A stretch of DNA of 62,188 bases, filler included, from Sphacelaria rigidula (GCA_964200075.2; 9 parts of 9 records of this genome joined end to end with filler, not necessarily neighbours in it); one strand, 5' to 3'. Counted from the first letter of the whole stretch, positions 4,060 to 54,837 are shown. Notes: a model not told the origin generated them from the letters alone. Translations and numbers: made by a program.

Positions 4060-5897
4060 TTTCTTTCAATCGTGTACTTGCGTGATATGGCGACCTGACG
4101 CGGTAGCAACTTCGTAAAAGTGTCATCTAGTAGAGGCACCATTCCCGGTTCCTGGAGTTCCGTACCCCCGATGCCCTGCACAACACCCATGAGGGGTTTC
4201 CACGGTGACTCAGTCCCCCCATGAGGATCGCTCTCTATGCTGAGTAACCTACATGTGTGTGTGTGGTCTACTTACTGTACTCAACTTGCCGCTGTAGAAT
4301 ATTGCTGAAGTGGATATTCAAGTGTTTTGTGCCCACGTGCCTCAAGTGGAGAACATGATCATTTTGAAGACAGGAATCAACGATTGCATACCATGGGGAG
4401 CCCACATTCTCTATGAAACTGGCGGAACAACACCCATGGGTTTACCTGTGCAATTACCCACGTTTCCATCATTTCAGACAGTTAGCAAATGGTGCTTTTC
4501 TGTTGTCCCTAAAGGAAAACACCCGTAACCATAGGCTCGATCGTAAGTGCACCAACGCAGTCTCCTTCACAAAAGACTGGCTCACGTGGAGGTATACCGT
4601 AAAACACAGTACATATCGCCCCCGGGTGGCACCAATTTTGTTCTGTTTTGTCTTGCAGTACGGTACAGTAGACATCGGCACGGTGCAATATATAGCCGAA
4701 AATCCATGTGCCGGGGGGGAGGGGGAAGCATACTGATTTGTTGCTTGCCTTGATCGTTTGATCGTTGACCACGCATCCCTTTCTAGTGGGAGTGGCGGGG
4801 GGGGGGGAGGGGGTCGAGAGGGTGTTACGTAAAACGAACGGGCGATGAAGAATAACGTGTTCTTGGGTCAGCATGGGAGACTTGAGCAATGCGAGGAAAG
4901 CAAGCGGAGAGTGAAGCAGCAGCATGGTGTGCACGCGCATACGCGATGTGCGGCACGTGAATACGTCGCATAGGAGCTACATACACCGTAGAGCATAACG
5001 TTCCGTTTTTCATATCATTCTAGCCCCTGAGGGTACTCGAGAGAGTGGTACCGGACGCACTGCATCTTCCCTCACTTTGTGTTTAGCTTGTAGCCTGAAT
5101 AACACACGTTTTCATGCACCGCCAGGGCCTCAGTAAGAAGGCAAGCATCAACAAACGCATATTGGGCGAGCCAGATCTCTCAGTGACATCGGGCTTACGA
5201 TAGTTGCAGGTTGCTGAAATTCCGTCCAGAAACCGATCATCGTTCATGTAGCAGGACCACTAGGGGGGGGACAAGATGTTCCGCACTCCTGCATCCAGAC
5301 CACAGTCAAGGCATACACCATGGACGATGAACCTTCAAAAAATACAGGGAGTATGTCAATGATCATGCTAAAGGGGGTATGCATATCATGTCTTACGATT
5401 GCAGAGAAAACTTACTAGACGAAAACATAGAATCTCGAACGAGTGTCTGTATACGCGTTGCGTTGTGCTCAGGGACCAATAATTTTCGATTTTCAGGTGA
5501 TCATTGACGATACTCAAGAGAACATCACTTCAGGAGGAGGAGGGGAGGGGAGGGGGGGCAGCAGGAATGCACTCAAGGAGACGATCGATTGAATCACGCA
5601 CCGTGACACAAACTTCAAGCACGTGGAATAGATCATTTTGAGAGCTGAGTGAGTATTTGCTGCTAAAAAAAAGTGATGATACCAAAATTTATTCATGAGT
5701 GCGTGTGTGATGGCGTAGGGCATATTATTCGCACTATCTTACGGCGGCTCTGCTGTCATACCTAGTATGCTCCTCCCGCCGTCGCTCATTGTCTTGACTG
5801 TCCAACTCCTTGAACTTCCACCTCAGGTATCTCCTAAAATCTCTCCGGCAGAACAACGTTATCGTGCTCCCAATATCGGAAGAGTCTCCCGCTGCCT
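2033..5897 (-). CDS. Multi-exon gene of unknown function (partial); best exons 5897-5762, 5527-5416, 5259-5199, 4880-4829, 4248-4095, plus weaker candidates down to 2158-2033
   Basis: Pyrimidine-tract/AG acceptors and GTATGA, GTAAGT, GTAAGC, GTAACA donors. Five consecutive exons join in phase without stops (AAGDSSDIGSTITLFCRRDFRRYLRWKFKELDSQDNERRREEHTSDVLLSIVNDHLKIENYWSLSTTQRVYRHSFEILCFRLWSCYMNDDRFLDG...). No domain recognised; downstream joins unresolved. Confidence 0.5.
4713..4813 (-). mobile_element. Short poly(C)-flanked repeat (probable non-LTR retroposon 3' end)
   Basis: Reverse complement AAAGGGATGCGTGGTCAACGATCAAACGATCAAGGCAAGCAACAAATCAGTATGCTT lies between C-runs; same family as 13937-14086. 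Confidence 0.7.
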
Positions 5898-6129
5898 CTG
5901 CCGTAAAAAAAAAAAAAGTGCAGCCGAAAACAAAGAAGGCAACAAGTGTAACGGCAGCAACAACAGCAACAGTTCGATTGTTCCGCGGACCAATTTGATT
6001 TCAACCTTGGACATGCTACATGTAATGCACAGTAGCACTCAATGGTAAATGTGACAAATGCACACAGTGTAAAAAGATGTATGTACCGTATACGAGTTGG
6101 GCCAGCCTAGAAGCGGATTCGCAGTTTGC

Positions 6130-7903: not shown

Positions 7904-8759
7904 TCAGACGGCGTCGGCATGCACAAGCGCAGACAAAGAAGAAAGCAGCAATGAAGCTGAATTTTTTGGAGTGGTGTTAAAGTGATTCGGAGAGCCGGTT
8001 GCTACGTGTGATGCCTCCAACCTCCAAAATTGCCTCGTTCGAAGTTGCGACAGTCAAGTCTGAGAAGTTGAATCAAGACCAGCCGTGGTCGAAAGGGGTC
8101 GAGGTGGGCTGTTCTGGGGACCGCTCACAGACAGAAGCGAAACACAACGCCATGAGCACCGATGAAGCTGAAACTTGTTGAGGGCGTCTTGATTGATAAA
8201 AGAGCAATGGGATGGGTTTTCGCGCAGCGCGGCTTCGAATTCATTCGGGGGAAAAAGGCTCGTGACTCTGGCCTTTGTTGTGCGAGCGGACGGACAGGGA
8301 CGACGCTTTTTGAACTTCGGTCCAGTAGAACCTTTTTCGGCCTAGGGCCTCAGAGGAATTGCAACACAGGGGTTACCCTTTGGGTGTGGAGCCGATACTG
8401 TGTACCAACCGCGGTATGACGCCTGCGGCGGTACTGCCTGCTCACTGCACAGCGGCAGGGTTCAGGGTGACAATGCACATCGCAAACGTTGCATCCTTTG
8501 TCTATCCCTGTCCTGTATTGATTTCGCGTTGCCCTATGCAAATAGCTACATCATCAGTGCAGTCATTGTATCGCAGCCAAGGTGTACGCAGGATATAAAG
8601 TCGCCACGCGCTTTATTGCTACGTCACATTCCGTAATGCTGTCCGTGTTGCAGCTACAGCGTGCGTTTGCCCCAGGTGGCGCACGCAGGAGTGGAAGGCC
8701 GCCTCCGCCGCGATAATGGCTGCCTGTATCTTGGGTGAAGCTGTATGGTAACACAGCCG

Positions 8760-45862: not shown

Positions 45863-46304
45863 AACAGCCGATCATTGAAACTGAGGATGGAACTTTTCGT
45901 TGAGGATGAGAACCCGCAAAATTAAAAATCTTCGTATCCACACCAAATCTTCGAAATATGGTTCCATTTCTTCACCTGCCGGTAGCTATTGACAACCGCC
46001 ACACGCCCTACAAATTTGGATTTCGATAACCGAAATGCTGGGGTCCTGGATGATGAAACAATTTTGGGAAATTCGGGTTATTCGATCGGATCGCCGAAAT
46101 TCCCCGAAACTGATTTTTCACCTAGGACCCCAACATTTCGGTTATCGAAATCCAAATTTGAATGACGTGTAGTAGTTGTCAACGGCTACCAGTAGGTGAA
46201 GGAATGGAACCATATTTCGAAGATTTGTTGTGGGTAAGATGTTAATCCTCCGGGTTCTCATCCTCAATGAAATGCTCCATCCTCAATTTCGATGATCGGC
46301 TGTT
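45863..46304. mobile_element. 442-bp foldback MITE, AACAGCCG...CGGCTGTT ends, 4-bp TSD ATTA
   Basis: Long TIRs; ATTA at 45859-45862 and 46305-46308; second copy at 50815-51478. Confidence 0.9.
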
Positions 46305-48447
46305 ATTAGTGTAGGGGCAGTAGCTTACGCCCGGAATCTTACGCCCTATTTCTTTCCGAAACCGAAGACTTTAGCCTAGGTGTCCTGCTTCTTGTCGTAA
46401 GGCCGCTGCTGTATGCCTCTGCATTGACCCGTTCTGCCCTCCTCCCCGGCTGCTGTCCTCTGTTTGTAATCCTGAAAACCCTGAACCTCAGATCGCACCT
46501 GTTCGGGCTCGTGAAAAGAGATCATCGGCACACCTTCGCGCCTGGTGATTTGGAGAAAACTGGGACCCAAACAGCGTTTATGCTGCGGTCGATTCGAGCC
46601 CTCACGAAGGGTGAGTGGGCCTTGGTCATTTTCCTGTCAGCCCGAAATGTAGGCCCATGGTCGTTTGTTTATTGATATCTGTTTGCGGTAAGTCTGTGTG
46701 TGTTTGAGGTTCCATCAAATTTGCACCTGCGAGATATATGTTTGGTCAGGGAGTGAATGAGCTACGCCAGGCACAGAATATTTGTTGCGGCTCAGATAAA
46801 ATTGCGGCTTTGGCGTGTGTGCTTGATCAGTCGATGCTTTGCTGACCAGGGCGGAAGACTAAGATAGAAATCACGTATCCTGAAGATGATTGCGGAAATC
46901 GGATGATCCTTCTGTACCTGCACACATGATGCATACATGCGTTATCTCCGACAAAAACATTGTCGTGTGATGGGTCTATTTCTTACTCATATAGTATATA
47001 TTAGCCGAAACCACTTGACTTTAGACTACAAGGCCCTAATTACTTGGTTTTCGACAACCCCGACTCGAATGAGTTTGGGTATGATCCACATAATCACTCG
47101 GATTCAGTATGAACATTATTTATCACTTGGATTTATTATCGATGCTATTAATCACTTGGTTACAGTGTATATATCCCACGGATACTGTTATACATATACA
47201 TATATAATTATATCAGCACACATGTTCAGCGACCGGCCGCATCCCTCTTAATAACGTCATAATATAAAATCCTCACAGGTGGTTGCACAGGCTGGCGCTG
47301 GAGGTGATGGCAGTAGACCTAAAGAAATGTACGTAAACAATAGTTGGTACTCGATTTTACTTGATTTCAGACTGAAGAAAGTTCTGAGAAAATTTATGAT
47401 TTGGGGCAGATGAGCAGTGGTGAGCAGTAGACCCACCTCGTCCAGAACGTGTTTTGGTCCAAAATCGGCTCAGAGGCGTCGTTTTAAGCTTTGGCAACGC
47501 ACCCGTAGCCTACAAGACACTTCGCACCCCCCTTGGTCGGGGTTAGGATTAGAGTCAGCGTTAGGGTGGCGTCATCTCCATAGTAGCAACCGTTGTTCAC
47601 GCCCATTTCTTTAGGTCCCCTCGGTGATCGAGCCGACCAAACAGACATGTCGGTATCATGCGCACAAAAATGATGTTGAGTGTTGAAAGGTACCGCTCAA
47701 GGAGCAGACAGTCTTGCGAACAAAACAATCTGTAGAGTAAGCAGTTCAGTAACTGCGTTGTAGTGAAGACTGGAAGAGATCGGGGGTCAGTCCCTGAATC
47801 TGGCGCGGCGCGATGGTATCTCGACTCTTTCCGACGTCCTGATGCGCTATCTACGACATGAGTTTTTGCCATCGTACCCACAACGTGAGGCTTCTCTTTT
47901 TTCTGTGCTAAGCCGCCGTAGATCTGTGCACACGCATCGTAGACCTCGCGCCGCACACCATGCTTGGACGCATTGACAGCGAACGTATGGCTACATGCCC
48001 CTTTTTCTCAACAGCCCCCGGTGGTCATTCTAGCATACCAAGACTAGGCTTGGCACGCGTTCTAGGTTCGAATCCTGATGATGCTAAAACTCTCATCAGG
48101 TTTGTGCCGTGCGAGATACGTGGCAGTGGTGAGTTGGTAGTGGAGTTCCGTGAGCGTGGGCAGGTGGAAAGATTACCTGGGTGGTGGTTCACAGCTCGAT
48201 CGTGAAATGCAAGGCAAGAAGTGGAGGAGAGATTGGTGGATTCCCTGACACTGCGGATTCGTCCCCGAAAAGAGGTCGGGAGAGGTGGGGGGAACGGGGG
48301 GTGGGGGGGTGTACGCATGATCATGCGTGCCATAGTCATCAGACCCTNNNNNNNNNNNNNNNNNNNNNNNNNNNNNNNNNNNNNNNNNNNNTTAATTAAT
48401 TAANNNNNNNNNNNNNNNNNNNNNNNNNNNNNNNNNNNNNNNNNNNN

Positions 48448-48516
48448 AACCCTAACCACAGGGGTGTTCAAATTCCGATGCGGTCCTCTAAGCACGCGGT
48501 CCTCTCACGCATTACA
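48448..48516 (+). mobile_element. Telomeric-repeat MITE, copy A (truncated by contig start)
   Basis: AACCCTAACC...GCGGTCCTCTAAGCACGCGGTCCTCTCACGCATTACA. Confidence 0.9.
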
Positions 48517-49138
48517 AAGGCGAAGACCTCATTGTTGGGGTTCACCATAGTATCAGATAGTGCTTTCGTGACAACAGCTTGGCTTGGGAATTTTGTGATC
48601 TTCTTGCTGGATATCGTATGCAATGGGTAAGGATGGGGAGTAGGAGTAGTGAACTACGATGAACCACCTATTTCGCGCGCACGTATGACTCCTCGACTCA
48701 GGTTGTGCCCAATCCTCTTCGAGCGACTGCCACTGCCGACAGCAACAACCATGGGTGGCCATGCATAGAAGGGGACGCTTGGATGCCACCTTATACGAAC
48801 GAGTGAGGGCACGGCCGGTACTCGCCTCGATCACGAAGCGAGTTGATGTTCCCATGATGATTATCCTTTCACCAGTATCTTATCGTAGAGTGCGTCGTGA
48901 CAGACTTCAAGCACATAGATATGACGGAAATTACCACCGTAAATTTCGCGCCCAACCTTCGTTTACGACAGGTGTTGCACTAAGACGGGGCGCCAACATG
49001 ATGTGTCGACGGTTGTGGGCTCGTTCGCCAGTGAGAATGCCGATCCATAGAGTACGGTAGCGACAGGAGTGTCGACGTGGTGAGCTCTGAAATAAATGAA
49101 ACCGCGTGATGTTCGGCACGTAATCCCAAATTTCCCAG

Positions 49139-52100
49139 ATGGCTTGTTGAGAACGAGAACGACATATGTGACGGCGTGCGAGGGACAAAGCTAGGCCAGC
49201 CCTTGGATATTGACTACGATGCTCTCAAGGGAGATGCCGCAGCCAGCATCGTGGATTGGGTGCCTCCGGTCTACGTGTATCGCGCAGGTGAGGCATTGAT
49301 GGCATCGGCATTCAGAAATATGACTCTACATCGGAGCAATCGCACTACCGACTTAGAGCACCTATGGGCGAGCAGTGATCGATGGTTGTTGATCCAGTGC
49401 GGTTGACGAAGTCGTGACTACATCTCGGCTAATTTATGCATGCCAAGTAAGTTGTATTTCACGCACATATGTGGAGTACTTCTTGTAAATTGCAACGTCG
49501 CCTGCTGCTAGCATATGCATGCATTGCTCAAAGCGCCCAGAGAGAGGATGAAAAAGTTATAGTTGACTGTACTCCCCGTTGGCGGCATGTAGGGCTTTCA
49601 TGGGGCTCGAAGTATAGGCGTCAAGGTGCTCGCGATAGATTATCATGCTTCCTTGGATACGTCACTTGCGTACTCTGACATTACTCATGCTATTTCACAA
49701 CACTACGGTTACTTGACGATCATACATCTTGACGGCAGACAATATACACATATCTCACAGCGTTGACTTGTGGATGTTGGAATATAACAGATACTATTGA
49801 TGAGGAGTACCCAGAGATGTGCGCGAGTACGCAATCCTCCATATCAGCAGTATACTTCTACCGGGGCAGCCACCTCCCAGAGCGCTATGGAAATAGACTC
49901 TTTGTCGGCGACTACTCCAAGGTGAGAAAGCGTATTCGACGGAGCGATGTGACCCCCTCAACGGAGTATGGTACTGGACGGTTTGAGTGGTGGCCGAGAC
50001 TGGCCAGGTGTGATATCACTGAAGTGGTGCAGGGCGTGAGGTATCCCTCTGGCGGTGAGGTACAAGAGGGGTTACCGAGACCTGAAAATATCAATTCACT
50101 CATATATACAGCGCAGGATTCAACCGAAGAGTGGTGCCATCGAAGGGATAAACTCAATAATTCCCAAGTATAGTTGCTAGGAGCCCTCTATCTCATCATC
50201 GAAAAACAAGTAATTATGAAACATTTAGGAGCACGCCGCAATCAATATCCCAATCGGCGATGGATGTCGCGAATGAATTTTGAAACGAGCATGATCTGAC
50301 ACATGTCCTTGAGTAGCTGCAAACTTTTGGAGCCACATGATGAGGAACATCCGGGCCCAAACGTGCAACCCCTACCGTGGCATGACTCAAAATATAAGAC
50401 GACGCCTTCACGGCGAATATATGCCACGGCAGGCGTGGCACCTTTGAACCCAGATTTTTCTCAGTGAGGGGCTCCTGAAGTCCGGAGCTACCTGAGAATC
50501 TGGATCAGGACTGTAATGCGTGAGAGGACCGCGTGCTTAGAGGACCGCATCGGAATTTGAACAATCCTATGGTTAGGGTTAGGGTTAGGGTTAGGGTTAG
50601 TGTTGGGGTTAGGGTCAGGGGCGTGGTACCTGCAGGGACTGATCCGATTTGTTTTGAAAAGCGTCAATCCTGAGGTGTTTTGAACTACGGCGCGGTCCTC
50701 TAAGCTCGCGGTCCTCTCACGCATTACAAGGACGTTCCCGTTTGAAACTCATTCAAGGTATTCTAGCCCATTTAGATGCTAGTCGTGGCGTGCTCTCACT
50801 TTAGAAGTCGTTTGAACAGCCGATCATCGAAGTTGAGGATGGAGCTTTTCGTTAACGATGAGATCCCGGAGGATTAAAATCTTTGTATCCGCACCGAATC
50901 TTCGAAACGTGGTTTGATTTCTGCTCCTACTGGTAGCTGTTGCCAACTGCTACACGTCCTACAAATTTGGATTTCGATAACCCGAATGTTGGGGTCTTCG
51001 ATGCAGAAAAAATGTTTGGGATTTAGGTAATCCGATCGGATCGCCGAAATTCCCCGAACAGGGTTTTTCACGTACAGCTCCAATATTTTGGTTATCGAAG
51101 TCCAAATTTGTATAACGTATTGTACTTCTTGTCAATAGCTACCAGTGGGTGAACGAATGGGACCACATTTCGTTTGAAGATTTGGTGTGGATACGAAGGT
51201 TTAAATCCTCCGGGTTCTCATCCTCAATGAACAGCTCCGTCCTCAATATCGATGGGCGGCTGTGTAATGCGTGAGAGGACCGCGTGCTTAGAGAACCGCA
51301 TCGGAATTTGAACATCCCCATGGTTTTAGGGTTAGGGTCAAGGTTAGTATTAGGGTTATGGTCAGGGACGTGGTACCAGCAGGGACTTGCCCGATTGGTT
51401 TCGAAAATCGTCGATCCTGAGGTGTTTTGAACCACGGGTCCTCTAAGCACGCGGTCCTCTCACGTATTACAGGCTATTCTTCTTTTTATGGACACTATGG
51501 TGTGATTTCCTGCCGTGGCATGACCCAGCTAGGACCAAAACGATGGGTCAATGAGAATCATTTTGATCGTGTTGGTGTTATTTGCATCCAGGGGTTTGCC
51601 GAGATATCCGCCGGCTTAATATCGCTTGACTGTGCGTCGAAAAATATGTGCTACCTTTGGACAGGATTGTGTGTGGTATTTCGACACTGACGAAGACACA
51701 GGAGCTGTGGAATGGAGCTCCCCTCATGTCCTGTTCGAAAGCCGAGCAGTCGTAGACTTCAGCACCGATCCCAAGACTGGTGAGGACGGTCAAGAGTTAA
51801 AAGGTTGTCCATCTCACTTGTAATCAAGGGAATAGGCGACCATTGAAAAATTGAAAAACACTCCGATTTTGAAGATAAACCCGTGTGACGCGTGAGACGA
51901 CCGCGTGCTTAGCGGACCGCGCCGTAGTTCAAAACACCTCAGGATCGACGTTTTTCAAAACCAATCGAGTCAGTCCCTGGAGTTACCACCCCCCTGACTA
52001 TAATCCTAATCCTAACCCTAACCCTAACCCTAACCTTAACTATAGGGATGTTCAAATTCCGGTGCGGTCCTCTAAGCACGCGGTCCTCTCACGCATTACC

Positions 52101-54537
52101 CCCGTCTACTTTGATGGGCGGAAAATATAGTATGTTGTCGACTTGTCGAATTATTGCAGGATGTACTTCTACCACTGAATGAACTCAATATTTTCCGCGT
52201 GGTGGAGTGCGTCACTGAACTGCTGGAAGTCAGACAGAATGAATCCCTTCATGTATTGAACAATGACCGGTGACACGGCTGAGTTTGGGTCTGCCTATAA
52301 GCCACCCCATACACCACTCAACACCTCATAAAAGGGGTGCTCAGGAAGATTACCTTTGTCACCTATTACTATCGAGCTGTTTATTTGTGTGGCTGTTTGT
52401 GGTGATGGTGGGTCCAATAGCTCTGTAGTAGATCACCAATAACCGGAGTAGGGTGACTTGGAGATGTGCCATATATATATATATATATATATATGTATAT
52501 TGCTTCGGCTGTCAATTTGCGTCTCGTAAAGCCGTGTATCGTGCGAGTAGGGTACAGTGGTTACGTAGAGGGTAGAACAACATCATAGACTTCTTTGGTG
52601 GCCACCGATTAACAGTGACACCTGTCGACGTCTCGCTCACTAGCGACGGTTACTCAATAAGATGAGGTAGAAACGACCGAGAGAAAAATGGACATCGACT
52701 GAAAGAATTCAAGTATACCTAAGACTACAAGTTCATAACTTGATGACTAGTTGAATCCTTTGATTGGTCATGGGTACCAACTGTAATGCGTGAGAGGATC
52801 GCGTGCTCAGAGGACCGCGCCGTATTTCCAAATACCTCAGGATCGACGTATTTCGAAACCAATCGAGTTAGTCCCTGCAGGTACCACGCCCCTGACACTA
52901 ACTCCAACACTAACCCTAACCCTAACCCTAACCCTAACCATACTGGTGTTCAAATTCCGGTGCGGTCCTCTAAGCACGCGGTCCTCTCACGCATTACACC
53001 ATCAACAGTAGTTTTTTTTCGCGGTCCTTGAGGTCAACGGAAAACACACCGCGGAATGATGGACAGAGAAGGAGAACCTATTACACAGCGATTGAACGAA
53101 AATGAGCGAATGGTTGGGATTTTTCATCAAAACGAGTCCAACTTTCAGGACCAAAAGTACACGATTCGTCGTTCTCTCGCCCCATGTCATTTAGACCCAT
53201 CCAGCAAGCGATGGCTAATGAGGGTTGCTTGCAAAACACGAAACTATATCACTTGGGAGGAAACGATAGCTGTACGACTCTATGATCAAGAAAAATCAAA
53301 TGGTATATTCAGGTCAGGACAGTGGCAAAACGTGTTGACCGGAAATCCACTCCCTACTAAATCTATGCTATTTCCACACCTCCGTGCCTCAAGCAGTGAG
53401 GACTGTACTGCTTGACAGGACCGGGTGCTTAGAGGACCGCATCGGAATTTGAATACCCCTGTGGCTAGGGTTAGGATTAGGGTTAGTGTTGGGGTTAGGG
53501 TCAGGGGCGTGGTACCTGCAGGGACTGGCCCGATTGGTTTTGAAAAACGTCGATCCTGAGGTATTTTGAAGTACGGCGCGGTCCTCTAAGCACGCGGTCC
53601 TCTCATGCATTGCAGGGATAATCCATCACAATATTTGTTTTACAGATCGCAAACCTTTACAACGCTAGAGAGCGAAGATACTCATGCATGGGTTTAGTAT
53701 TGGCCGACTAGACTCTGGTCCTACTTATTATTGTTGCTTAGCGCAGTACTGCTACAGGAGAGGAGAACGAGCATTTCCCATTCCATGTCTTTCGTAAGCA
53801 TGTTGTGTCGCTTCCATCCCTGCTGACCTTGTCGGTGCGAATTCCCCCGTGCTCCTCAGGTATCTTGTACGCAGTGGACGCAAAATTCCACATTTTAATC
53901 AAGATATCCGCCGTGGGAGGTACGGTAGGGCCATCTGGACCGAACGTTGTTCTCGAGGCCGACCTTTCCTCTGGGCCGGTGAGAATAACGACAACTCCAT
54001 GTTGCATGCTTGAGACGCACCAAAGATCGCAGTATCGTGCTCAGAGAACCTCTGCATAAACACCCAGTTTTACGGGGCATTCTTGAGACACGCCACTCGT
54101 CTCTGTAAGTGAGATGGTAGATAGTACTTCACCATATATTCAATTGTTGATGGTATTCGCCACGCATTATGAGTATCAAATACCAACCGTTCGTTCGAAG
54201 CGCGAATATATGGACTCGCTCCCTGGATAATAGTCGCTCATTCTTTCGCGTACAGGACAGGTATGACCCTTCGTATCGTCATCATGGGCAGCAGACGAAA
54301 CTCACTGCGGTTTTGTTTTTTCTACGGAATGACGTCAACTTGCAGGTCCCCCTCAAGGTTACTCTGAGTGCGGGGTCCTCCAATCCGAGCGGCATAGTTT
54401 CCTTGAAATGGGACTGCGACGGAGACGGGGTATTCGAGGCAGAGAGTAAATGGACACCTGCGGCAGGAAGAGCACACATTTGCACCTTCGGGGAGAGCGG
54501 GGTTTTCGATGCCAGCGTACAAGCCATCAGCGCAGAG
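49139..54537 (+). CDS. Glucose/sorbosone (PQQ-dependent sugar) dehydrogenase-like beta-propeller + PKD domain, partial; exons 49139-49287, 49791-49921, 51665-51779, 53860-53978, 54346-54537
   Basis: All introns are GT-AG with consistent phases (1,0,1,0). PPVYVY...SSISAVYFYRGSHLPERYGNRLFVGDYSK and VDFSTDPKTGILYAVD match the GSDH C-terminal blades; SGPVPLKVTLSAGSS...WDCDGDG...TFGESGVFDASV matches a PKD fold. Confidence 0.85.
50512..50728 (-). mobile_element. Telomeric-repeat MITE, copy B (217 bp), TSD AGGAC/AGGAC
   Basis: 37-bp TIR TGTAATGCGTGAGAGGACCGCGTGCTTAGAGGACCGC; internal (TTAGGG)n. Confidence 0.95.
50815..51478. mobile_element. AACAGCCG foldback MITE with its right TIR interrupted by telomeric MITE copy C
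   Basis: Collinear with 45863-46304; terminal GGCTG duplicated as GGCTA after the insert and followed by the final TT. Confidence 0.85.
51263..51471 (-). mobile_element. Telomeric-repeat MITE, copy C (209 bp), TSD GGCTG/GGCTA
   Basis: Same TIRs with small deletions; degenerate TTAGGG tract. Confidence 0.92.
51884..52100 (+). mobile_element. Telomeric-repeat MITE, copy D (217 bp)
   Basis: TGTGACGCGTGAG...CGCATTACC; (CCCTAA)n; flanks ACCCG/CCCGT, so TSD length is ambiguous (4 or 5 bp). Confidence 0.92.
52782..52998 (+). mobile_element. Telomeric-repeat MITE, copy E (217 bp), TSD CCAAC/CCATC
   Basis: TGTAATGCG...CGCATTACA; (CCCTAA)n. Confidence 0.95.
53404..53614 (-). mobile_element. Telomeric-repeat MITE, copy F (211 bp, one hexamer shorter), flanks AGGAC/GGGAT
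   Basis: TGTACTGC...GCATTGCA; TTAGGG-like tract. Confidence 0.92.
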
Positions 54538-54837
54538 GTATACGACGGAAGGATATTCGTGTTTCGTTGTCTTAGTGTCATTTTCCCATACGAGCTACGA
54601 TTCCAATAGCGCATCATTTTGCGTGTAGTGGCGTCGTTGGTGTGAAAGTACGCCAGCGAGTGTTTCCCCATCTGTTGGGTGAGCAATATATGATTGTTCT
54701 GTCTCGTTTTTGCGCGATCGGTGATTGAGAGCCTCTGTCAAAAGTGCGTTTGGAGACACCCGAGACTAGTCGCATGGCCTTGGGTCCTGTACGGTCCCTT
54801 TCTGAAGACTCGGGAGGAACTTCCCACGGGGAGAAGA

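What the first reader, a model, noticed from the sequence alone, without database searches (positions are those of the whole stretch)
48448..53614. Six telomere-repeat-carrying TG...CA elements packed into the introns of one gene
Seen: a 209-217-bp element with 37-bp TIRs (each containing GAGGACCGC twice), TGT...ACA ends and an off-centre (CCCTAA)n tract, in six copies and both orientations within 5.2 kb. I saw none in the other eight contigs. Flanks: AGGAC/AGGAC, GGCTG/GGCTA, CCAAC/CCATC, AGGAC/GGGAT and one ambiguous. Known: TG...CA ends with 4-5-bp TSDs are the signature of retroviral-type integrases; among TIR elements, Ginger2/TDD fits. Inference: a possibly undescribed non-autonomous integrase-mobilised family that hops locally or has a regional preference, and seeds interstitial telomeric repeats (potential telomere-protein binding sites or G-quadruplexes). 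Distinct flanks argue for independent insertions rather than segmental duplication.
Basis: partly seen in the sequence, partly recalled or inferred. Interest (0 to 1): 0.75.

Follow-up and report, generated by a model that had tools for sequence, protein, structure and literature searches.

The report
Telomere-repeat mini-transposon that clusters with kin
A small, high-copy jumping DNA element in a seaweed genome carries a short telomere-like tract, appears to have been moved by a previously uncharacterised integrase-type enzyme, and lands unusually often next to its own relatives, which explains the six copies packed into one gene.

Summary
In detail: five complete 209-217-bp copies and one end cut by the contig start, with 37-bp TIRs, TG...CA ends and a degenerate TTAGGG tract. 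At least five lie inside one gene whose paralog has short, empty introns. The element is a MITE with about 1,600 or more copies. Of 108 copies, 47 have exact 5-bp and 23 exact 4-bp target duplications. The same termini cap a 1.1-kb sister family and broken large elements with 0.7-1.2-kb TIRs. One of these holds the only found copy of an intron-split CxxC-D,D(35)E integrase without reverse transcriptase. Its homologs, one from Nemacystus, form their own clade. It works like Ginger but fails defining tests of both Ginger1 and Ginger2. Clustering is real and genome-wide (17 pairs within 3 kb, 0.63 expected), but neighbours are not sister copies. MITEs are about 30-fold enriched beside sister and large elements and absent around 30 LTR integrases, which favours landing near kin or shared kb-scale hotspots over local hopping. 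The tract sits at the junction of two TIR-derived arms, is not extra-conserved, and supplies 24 of 43 examined interstitial telomeric tracts.

The parts
48448..48516 (+). MITE copy 1, right end only (tail of tract + TIR), cut by contig start
   Evidence: strand = strand reading CCCTAA
50512..50728 (-). MITE copy 2, 217 bp, exact 5-bp TSD AGGAC
50568..50620 (+). Degenerate (TTAGGG)n tract of copy 2, between the two TIR-derived arms
50816..51264 (.). Unrelated ~445-bp palindromic repeat B (ACAGCCGATC...GATCGGCTGT); copy 3 is inserted at its last base
51263..51471 (-). MITE copy 3, 209 bp, 5-bp TSD with one mismatch
51884..52100 (+). MITE copy 4, 217 bp, exact 4-bp TSD CCCG, mutated ends
52782..52998 (+). 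MITE copy 5, 217 bp, 5-bp TSD with one mismatch
53404..53614 (-). MITE copy 6, 211 bp, no clean TSD
48693..48803 (+). Host gene exon (segment matched to paralog)
   Evidence: E 1.5e-12
49139..49287 (+). Host gene exon, AG/GT boundaries
   Evidence: (E 1e-23)
49790..49921 (+). Host gene exon (matched part, GT donor at 49922)
   Evidence: (E 6e-18)
51665..51805 (+). Host gene exon (AG acceptor; matched part)
   Evidence: (E 3e-21)
53860..53981 (+). Host gene exon (matched part)
   Evidence: (E 4e-10)
54343..54540 (+). Host gene exon encoding a PKD domain
   Evidence: E 3e-19; paralog exon PF00801 E 1.2e-5, above cut-off; window exon E 0.06

Best explanation
The element is a MITE: a non-coding, internally deleted derivative of a cut-and-paste DNA transposon family whose transposase is a retroviral-type (CxxC, D,D(35)E) integrase. 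SHOWN: TIRs, mixed 5-bp/4-bp TSDs, a weak palindromic target (purine three bases outside the duplication), about 1,600 or more copies about 6.5% diverged, and identical termini on larger elements, one of which carries the integrase gene. INFERRED (about 85%): that integrase bound the repeated GGACCGC motif of the TIRs in trans, excised the MITE and inserted it with a 5- or 4-bp staggered cut; the only copy found is broken, so the family is probably dead in this genome. INFERRED (about 60%): the TTAGGG tract arose once, as filler added at the deletion break that joined a ~57-bp arm to a ~115-bp arm of the parental TIR; it has since been a passenger that changes length in 6-bp steps. INFERRED (about 50%): clusters form because incoming transposase-DNA complexes preferentially capture targets within a few kb of DNA that already carries family ends. 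A first intronic insertion would then draw more over time, which is how this gene got six.
For: TSDs: 47 exact 5-bp and 23 exact 4-bp of 108 copies, against 0.15% and 0.46% for shuffled flanks; purine at -3 in 84 of 94 and 39 of 46 strand-symmetrised sites. Partner: C10636:59-8414 has ~720-bp TIRs whose outer 37 bp differ from the MITE TIR at 2 and 0 positions. C1162 shares that arm (94-97%); the integrase lies just inside it, split by a 244-bp phase-0 GT-AG intron, with no RT or RNase H hit among the ORFs scanned. It was the only such integrase found in the genome. A homolog passes the rve cut-off (P0004). The tail of the Nemacystus homolog matches C13501, another contig with the same TIR arm (E 1e-8). 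Clustering: 17 pairs within 3 kb v 0.63 expected, maximum 5 in 5,000 simulations; enrichment falls from ~30x under 1 kb to ~5x beyond 5 kb. MITE cores: 13 in 62 kb around 19 sister elements and 9 in 46 kb of 5 of 5 large-element contigs, v 0 in 90 kb around 30 LTR integrases and 1 in 145 kb of 20 systematically chosen contigs. Three copies sit inside another copy's tract and one inside a large TIR arm. Tract boundaries coincide with the end of TIR homology on both sides; lengths peak at 205, 211 and 217 bp.
Against: No intact autonomous copy was found. C10636 has no TSD and no integrase; C1162 lacks its left end, has a stop codon and a MITE insertion in the integrase gene; cargo order differs between copies. 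Most anchors are solitary: 34 of 40 in the second batch show no other TIR end within about 3 kb, so any attraction is weak per event. Same-contig copies share slightly more derived variants than chance (1.54 v 1.18, p 0.034), which suggests some true local hops. Sequence alone cannot separate attraction to kin from pre-existing kb-scale hotspots. Sister loci were the top 40 of 56 search candidates, and the query shares a 13-nt word with the MITE, so mild selection bias is possible. 38 of 108 copies have no exact TSD (22 one mismatch, 16 none). No empty site was seen among the joints listed (290 joints not shown).
Confidence: 0.7

Rival explanations
1. Same element and enzyme, but clusters reflect kb-scale hotspots set by the host (chromatin state or a tethering host protein) that all family members share, with no role for resident copies.
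For: Explains equally well the mix of old and young subfamilies in one cluster and the co-location with sister families. Clusters stop within about 5-10 kb, with empty remainders of the same contigs.
Against: Four nested insertions fall directly in family sequence. Enrichment is highest under 1 kb. The close paralog of the host gene has no copy.
Confidence: 0.35
2. Clusters arise mainly by local hopping: a copy reinserts near its donor, which is restored by gap repair.
For: Enrichment decays with distance. Small excess of shared derived variants in same-contig pairs (p 0.034). Hops made during a burst of identical copies would leave no signature.
Against: Same-contig distances are no lower than between contigs (0.154 v 0.152; permutation p 0.25); nearest relative on own contig 0 of 51. 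Clusters mix a ~14% diverged and a ~5% diverged subfamily. Cannot explain MITEs gathering at 1.1-kb and large relatives.
Confidence: 0.12
3. The elements are solo LTRs or TRIM ends of a retrotransposon.
For: TG...CA ends and 4-5-bp TSDs. The genome holds many copia and gypsy integrases.
Against: 37-55-bp TIRs. 0 of 24 same-orientation pairs share an outer TSD; no primer-site or polypurine enrichment beside 128 copies. No TIR near 30 LTR integrases. The partner integrase has an intron.
Confidence: 0.03
4. The telomeric tract is functional: it binds a telomere-repeat protein or folds a G-quadruplex that helps mobilisation, targeting or tolerance.
For: The tract-bearing family is far more numerous than the tract-less sister (2,210 v 56 search candidates). 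A four-run G-quadruplex pattern is met by 34 of 128 copies with loops up to 7 and 86 of 128 with loops up to 12. A second, unrelated repeat in this genome also carries such a tract.
Against: No extra conservation; fixed degenerate units. Tract-less relatives attract MITEs as targets. Small size alone can explain high copy number.
Confidence: 0.15

Closest known systems
Ginger2/TDD DNA transposons (Bao, Kapitonov, Jurka 2010, PMC2836005; parts 1-3 of 5 read)
   Same: TGTNR termini, TIRs, integrase-type DDE transposase without RT, no GPY/F triad by eye, 4-bp (animals) or 5-bp (TDD-4/5) TSD, short non-autonomous derivatives (Ginger2-1N1_NV, 252 bp).
   Different: One family makes both 5- and 4-bp TSDs; target is not AT-rich RTATAY; partner TIRs are 0.7-1.2 kb v 45-297 bp; the integrase does not join the two stand-alone Ginger2-like rows of my trees; brown algal host.
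Ginger1 DNA transposons (same paper)
   Same: Introns in the transposase gene; a cysteine-protease-like tail in a homolog and a weak Ulp1 hit in one copy; CCGG/CCGT/ACGG over-represented among 4-bp TSDs (6 of 23, p 2e-7).
   Different: Most exact TSDs are 5 bp and only 6 of 70 are the Ginger1 motifs; no GPY/F triad; much longer TIRs.
DNA5-N1_Ec32 of Ectocarpus (PMC12477816, supplement file 1, row 139)
   Same: Non-autonomous, TG...CA ends, 5-bp TSD, labelled 'possible Ginger?' in a brown alga.
   Different: TGTTG ends, 9-bp TIR, 502 bp; no telomeric tract or autonomous partner is noted; its sequence was not among the text I could search.
Self-inserting plant MITEs Castaway and Gaijin (review PMC5172404, passages)
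   Same: MITE multimers from independent insertions with a preference for own family.
   Different: Described as nested multimers; here the excess extends over several kb and to larger relatives; different transposon group (recalled).
Short interstitial telomeric sequences inserted at double-strand breaks (PMC7215372, abstract)
   Same: A short TTAGGG tract at a junction, consistent with break repair.
   Different: Here one such event appears to have been captured in a transposon and copied over a thousand times.

Membership tests
MITE (non-autonomous TIR element) | Short, non-coding, TIRs, TSD, high copy, uniform size | tested here: met
MITE (non-autonomous TIR element) | Shares termini with a transposase-coding element | tested here: met
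   0 mismatches in 37 bp with the C1162 end; integrase inside
Ginger2/TDD | TGTNR termini | tested here: met
   TGTAA
Ginger2/TDD | 4-bp or 5-bp TSD | tested here: met
   both occur: 47 and 23 of 108
Ginger2/TDD | AT-rich RTATAY target preference | tested here: not met
   4-bp TSDs have a CG core in 27 of 46 symmetrised sites
Ginger2/TDD | H2C2 zinc finger plus DDE core | tested here: inconclusive
   CxxC and D,D(35)E seen; Pfam rve hit, Integrase_H2C2 not hit; histidines not confirmed
Ginger2/TDD | Transposase groups with Ginger2 in a tree | tested here: inconclusive
   own clade 100/99 and 96/94, deep branches open; no labelled Ginger sequence available
Ginger1 | 4-bp TSD, CCGG or CCGT/ACGG in 99% | tested here: not met
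   6 of 70 exact TSDs
Ginger1 | GPY/F motif | tested here: not met
   SH3-like segment after the core lacks the triad, read by eye
Ginger1 | YPYY motif | tested here: inconclusive
   an F-P-F-F pattern upstream of the finger by eye; the paper's figure is not visible
Ginger1 | OTU or Ulp1 C-terminal protease | tested here: inconclusive
   Ulp1 E 0.064 in C13501; protease-like tail of P0017 has no Pfam protease hit
IS3EU/GingerRoot | 6-bp TSD, mostly TA..TA ends | tested here: not met
   no copy in the 6-bp class of 108; definition from passages of PMC10045372
IS481EU | No HHCC; TSD 4, ~15 or ~25 bp | tested here: not met
   CxxC present, main TSD 5 bp; long TSDs not tested; only weak (65/90) grouping with IS481-like rows
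Polinton/Maverick | Integrase without zinc finger; DNA polymerase B gene (latter recalled) | tested here: inconclusive
   CxxC present; no polymerase hit in the ORFs scanned, but all large copies are partial
Solo LTR / TRIM | Direct-repeat pairs with outer TSD, primer site and polypurine tract | tested here: not met
   0 of 24 pairs; no enrichment
Repbase/Dfam entry | Identity to a catalogued family | not testable with these tools
   libraries not held; Rfam gave no hit

The most novel reading that the evidence does not exclude
A third, brown-algal lineage of integrase-type DNA transposons beside Ginger1 and Ginger2. It has kilobase TIRs, a deubiquitinase-like tail and two stagger lengths, and its transpososome homes to DNA that already carries its own ends, the opposite of target immunity. 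Its MITE captured a telomeric tract and became the largest single source of interstitial telomeric repeats in the genome.
Probability: 0.3. Interest if true: 0.75.

Novelty: new variant of a known kind. Interest (0 to 1): 0.52.

Why it matters
Integrase-type cut-and-paste transposons bear on the origin of LTR retrotransposon and retroviral integrases. The curated Ectocarpus library lists only one 'possible Ginger?' MITE and, in the parts I searched, no autonomous Ginger; this supplies a candidate enzyme lineage for brown algae. If kin-directed targeting is real, it gives a testable case of self-attraction in a DDE integrase and a route by which single introns inflate: the intervals holding copies 2-3 and 4-6 are about 1.7 and 2.0 kb here v about 0.2 and 0.5 kb in the paralog. 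It also shows that many interstitial telomeric tracts in a genome can descend from one captured event, a caution for telomere calling in algal assemblies.

Tried and rejected
Top 30 rve loci of the genome (150 of 1,683 candidates scored): those whose translations I saw were copia or gypsy (the output was cut), and none carried a MITE core. Idea that 4-bp TSDs are 5-bp TSDs that lost an A at the junction: 12 of 14 fitted by eye in the first sample but 13 of 23 in the larger one (p 0.15); rejected. TSD length tied to a MITE subfamily: best column p 0.005 of 211 tested, not significant after correction. Segmental duplication: distinct flanks, no shared variants among window copies. Three word-index protein searches found nothing (cargo ORF, integrase half, one host exon). 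TIR pattern in viral contigs: 0. Integrase profile in metagenomes: only distant IS481-like hits. AlphaFold model of P0004: mean pLDDT 50, includes translated intron, not used. No RNA holder listed; run X8 gave no cover on the exons: no verdict on expression. Host gene as a glucose/sorbosone dehydrogenase: motifs recalled from memory only; Pfam and PDB gave no hit. Summed contig depth was not used as copy number. Earlier scan findings: three look-ups, nothing. Eight of the first 51 telomeric tracts were not examined.

Full report
Setting. The window is nine 6.8-kb contigs joined by N spacers. The finding lies in contig C17920 of a 244-Mb, 27,214-contig assembly. The host looks like a brown alga: intron-rich genes, holders labelled algae metagenome, and the one close integrase homolog with a name is from Nemacystus decipiens. 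That TTAGGG is the brown algal telomere repeat is recalled, not taken from a call.

Observation. Five whole copies and one contig-cut end are present at the stated places, none in the other eight contigs. Six + strand segments between and around them match, in order, a paralog on C10684; its PKD exon passes the Pfam cut-off. The paralog has much shorter introns and no copy. Contigs from a second study bridge the listed junctions and differ by scattered SNPs; no empty site is listed. The insertions therefore predate the split of those samples.

Family size and age. One exact 25-nt TIR end occurs 1,481 times. Given one exact end, the other is exact 46% of the time, giving about 1,600 elements as a lower bound. 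One core in 145 kb of 20 systematically chosen contigs (6.9 per Mb) agrees; the 95% upper bound is about 28 per Mb. 128 short copies differ from their majority sequence by a median 6.5%, with an older (~14%) and a younger (~5%) subfamily.

Target sites. Of 128 short copies, 108 keep TG...CA ends. Of these 47 have exact 5-bp and 23 exact 4-bp duplications, 22 have one mismatch and 16 none; shuffled flanks give 0.15% and 0.46%. Both classes prefer a purine three bases outside the duplication. The 4-bp class is enriched for CCGG/CCGT/ACGG (6 of 23, p 2e-7). TSD length does not track a subfamily. A solo-LTR origin fails its tests.

The partner. A neighbouring variant end led to a 1.1-kb sister family (19 contigs fetched) and five contigs with large elements. 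C10636:59-8414 has ~720-bp TIRs ending in the MITE terminus, with GGACCGC repeated along the arms. It has no TSD and no transposase hit. C1162 shares internal sequence (97%) and a 1.2-kb arm whose last 37 bp equal the MITE TIR. Inside the arm lies a gene with CxxC, D, D(35)E and an SH3-like segment, split by a 244-bp phase-0 GT-AG intron, with a stop codon and a MITE insertion. Three searches found no second copy. Among 1.84 billion representatives, 11 proteins score E <= 1e-10. They form a clade apart from copia, gypsy, IS481-like and two stand-alone Ginger2-like integrases (100/99 on 97 columns; 96/94 on 252 columns with six partial rows); deep branches are open and no labelled Ginger was available. 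The protease-like tail of the Nemacystus protein matches C13501, which carries the same TIR arm (E 1e-8), an independent tie between gene and ends. Against: all large copies are broken, differently arranged, and none is complete.

Clustering. Among the 81 elements defined by the first 100 exact ends (contigs 1-1385, about 28.7 Mb by interpolated lengths), 17 pairs lie within 3 kb against 0.63 expected, and six contigs hold three or more against 0.05. Yet most copies are solitary. Neighbours are not sisters: nearest relative on the same contig 0 of 51, distances not lower (p 0.25), shared derived variants only slightly raised (p 0.034). Old and young copies sit side by side. MITE cores reach about 200 per Mb around sister and large elements (9 of 19 and 5 of 5 contigs), v 0 in 90 kb around LTR integrases; five lie within the mapped sister spans and most others within 1 kb. 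Four copies are nested in family sequence. I read this as repeated landing near kin. Shared host hotspots remain a close rival, and local hopping a minor contributor. Self-insertion preference is known for rice MITEs (PMC5172404, passages).

The tract. Read inward, the right arm follows the parental TIR for about 57 bp and then turns into the G-rich repeat. The left arm follows it, more loosely, to about 115 bp, ending in a CCCCGACCAAACC-like stretch. Large and sister termini have no tract. Its degenerate units are shared across copies, lengths peak at 6-bp steps, and conservation equals the rest of the interior. A single capture at the founding deletion break fits, in line with break-associated insertion of telomeric repeats in mammals (PMC7215372, abstract only); this is inference. 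An 18-nt telomeric motif occurs 2,153 times. The first 100 hits form 51 tracts: 24 are in this MITE, 19 elsewhere (about nine in a second repeat family, judged by eye), 8 not examined.

Comparison. It works like Ginger (PMC2836005, parts 1-3 of 5 read) but fails the Ginger2 target rule and the Ginger1 TSD and GPY/F rules, so I do not file it under either. IS3EU/GingerRoot and IS481EU are excluded by TSD length (PMC10045372, passages). The Ectocarpus survey (PMC12477816: passages, section 5 part 2, supplement file 1 part 3, and word searches of five supplement files) names Ginger once, for an unclassified 502-bp MITE; its sequence library was not among the searchable text. The 60-genome brown algal preprint has no 'ginger' in its main text; its supplements are closed and may bear on this. 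Ten literature searches showed no description of this family or of a telomere-tract MITE in brown algae; I saw listings only for most hits. Repbase, Dfam and most subscription journals were not searchable.

Verdict. A real, ordinary-looking MITE cluster that opens onto an apparently undescribed Ginger-like lineage with mixed TSDs, a captured telomeric tract and kin-biased insertion. New variant of a known kind; interest 0.52.

Noticed in passing
L289, L293, L297, L298, L301, L303-L305, L144:581, L015:2984; a likely copy at window ~47520-47570 (by eye; the BLAST did not pick it up): A second, unrelated repeat family with a GC-rich motif followed by a (TTAGGG)n tract; about nine of the 19 non-MITE tracts. 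Ends not mapped.
   Followed up: partly
window 50816-51264 and ~45865-46304: A ~440-448-bp palindromic repeat with ACAGCCGATC...GATCGGCTGT ends and A/T-rich flanks; five full copies seen in fetched loci; very deep in contig data.
   Followed up: partly
L087-L110, e.g. L105:1446-2552: 1.1-kb sister MITE family with long, largely palindromic arms and the same termini, no telomeric tract; 4-bp TSD in 2 and near-5-bp in 2 of 9 copies.
   Followed up: yes
L111:457-493 and 7960-7996: The large element's TIR contains an inverted second copy of the 37-bp terminus about 435-455 bp inside, so each arm ends in a MITE-like unit.
   Followed up: partly
L111:2830-4952 (-), L120:494-2517 (-): Cargo ORFs on the opposite strand shared by three large copies (82-97% DNA identity), no Pfam or database match.
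   Followed up: partly
L112:161-391, 1650-2846, 5553-5954: Cysteine-protease-like pieces (USP-type boxes by eye; weak Ulp1 hit) inside a large copy.
   Followed up: partly
L039:2187-2397: A MITE inserted, with a 5-bp TSD, in the integrase frame of a gypsy element.
   Followed up: no
L123:1030-1959: A 310-aa ORF with DDE-like motifs resembling a Sola-type transposase by eye; no Pfam hit.
   Followed up: no
L294 (C79:14464-14518): Head-to-head telomeric repeats (TTAGGG run meeting a CCCTAA run) at an internal site.
   Followed up: no
genome-wide: Exact TIR ends are denser on smaller contigs (6.4 per Mb) than on the 1,385 largest (3.5 per Mb).
   Followed up: no
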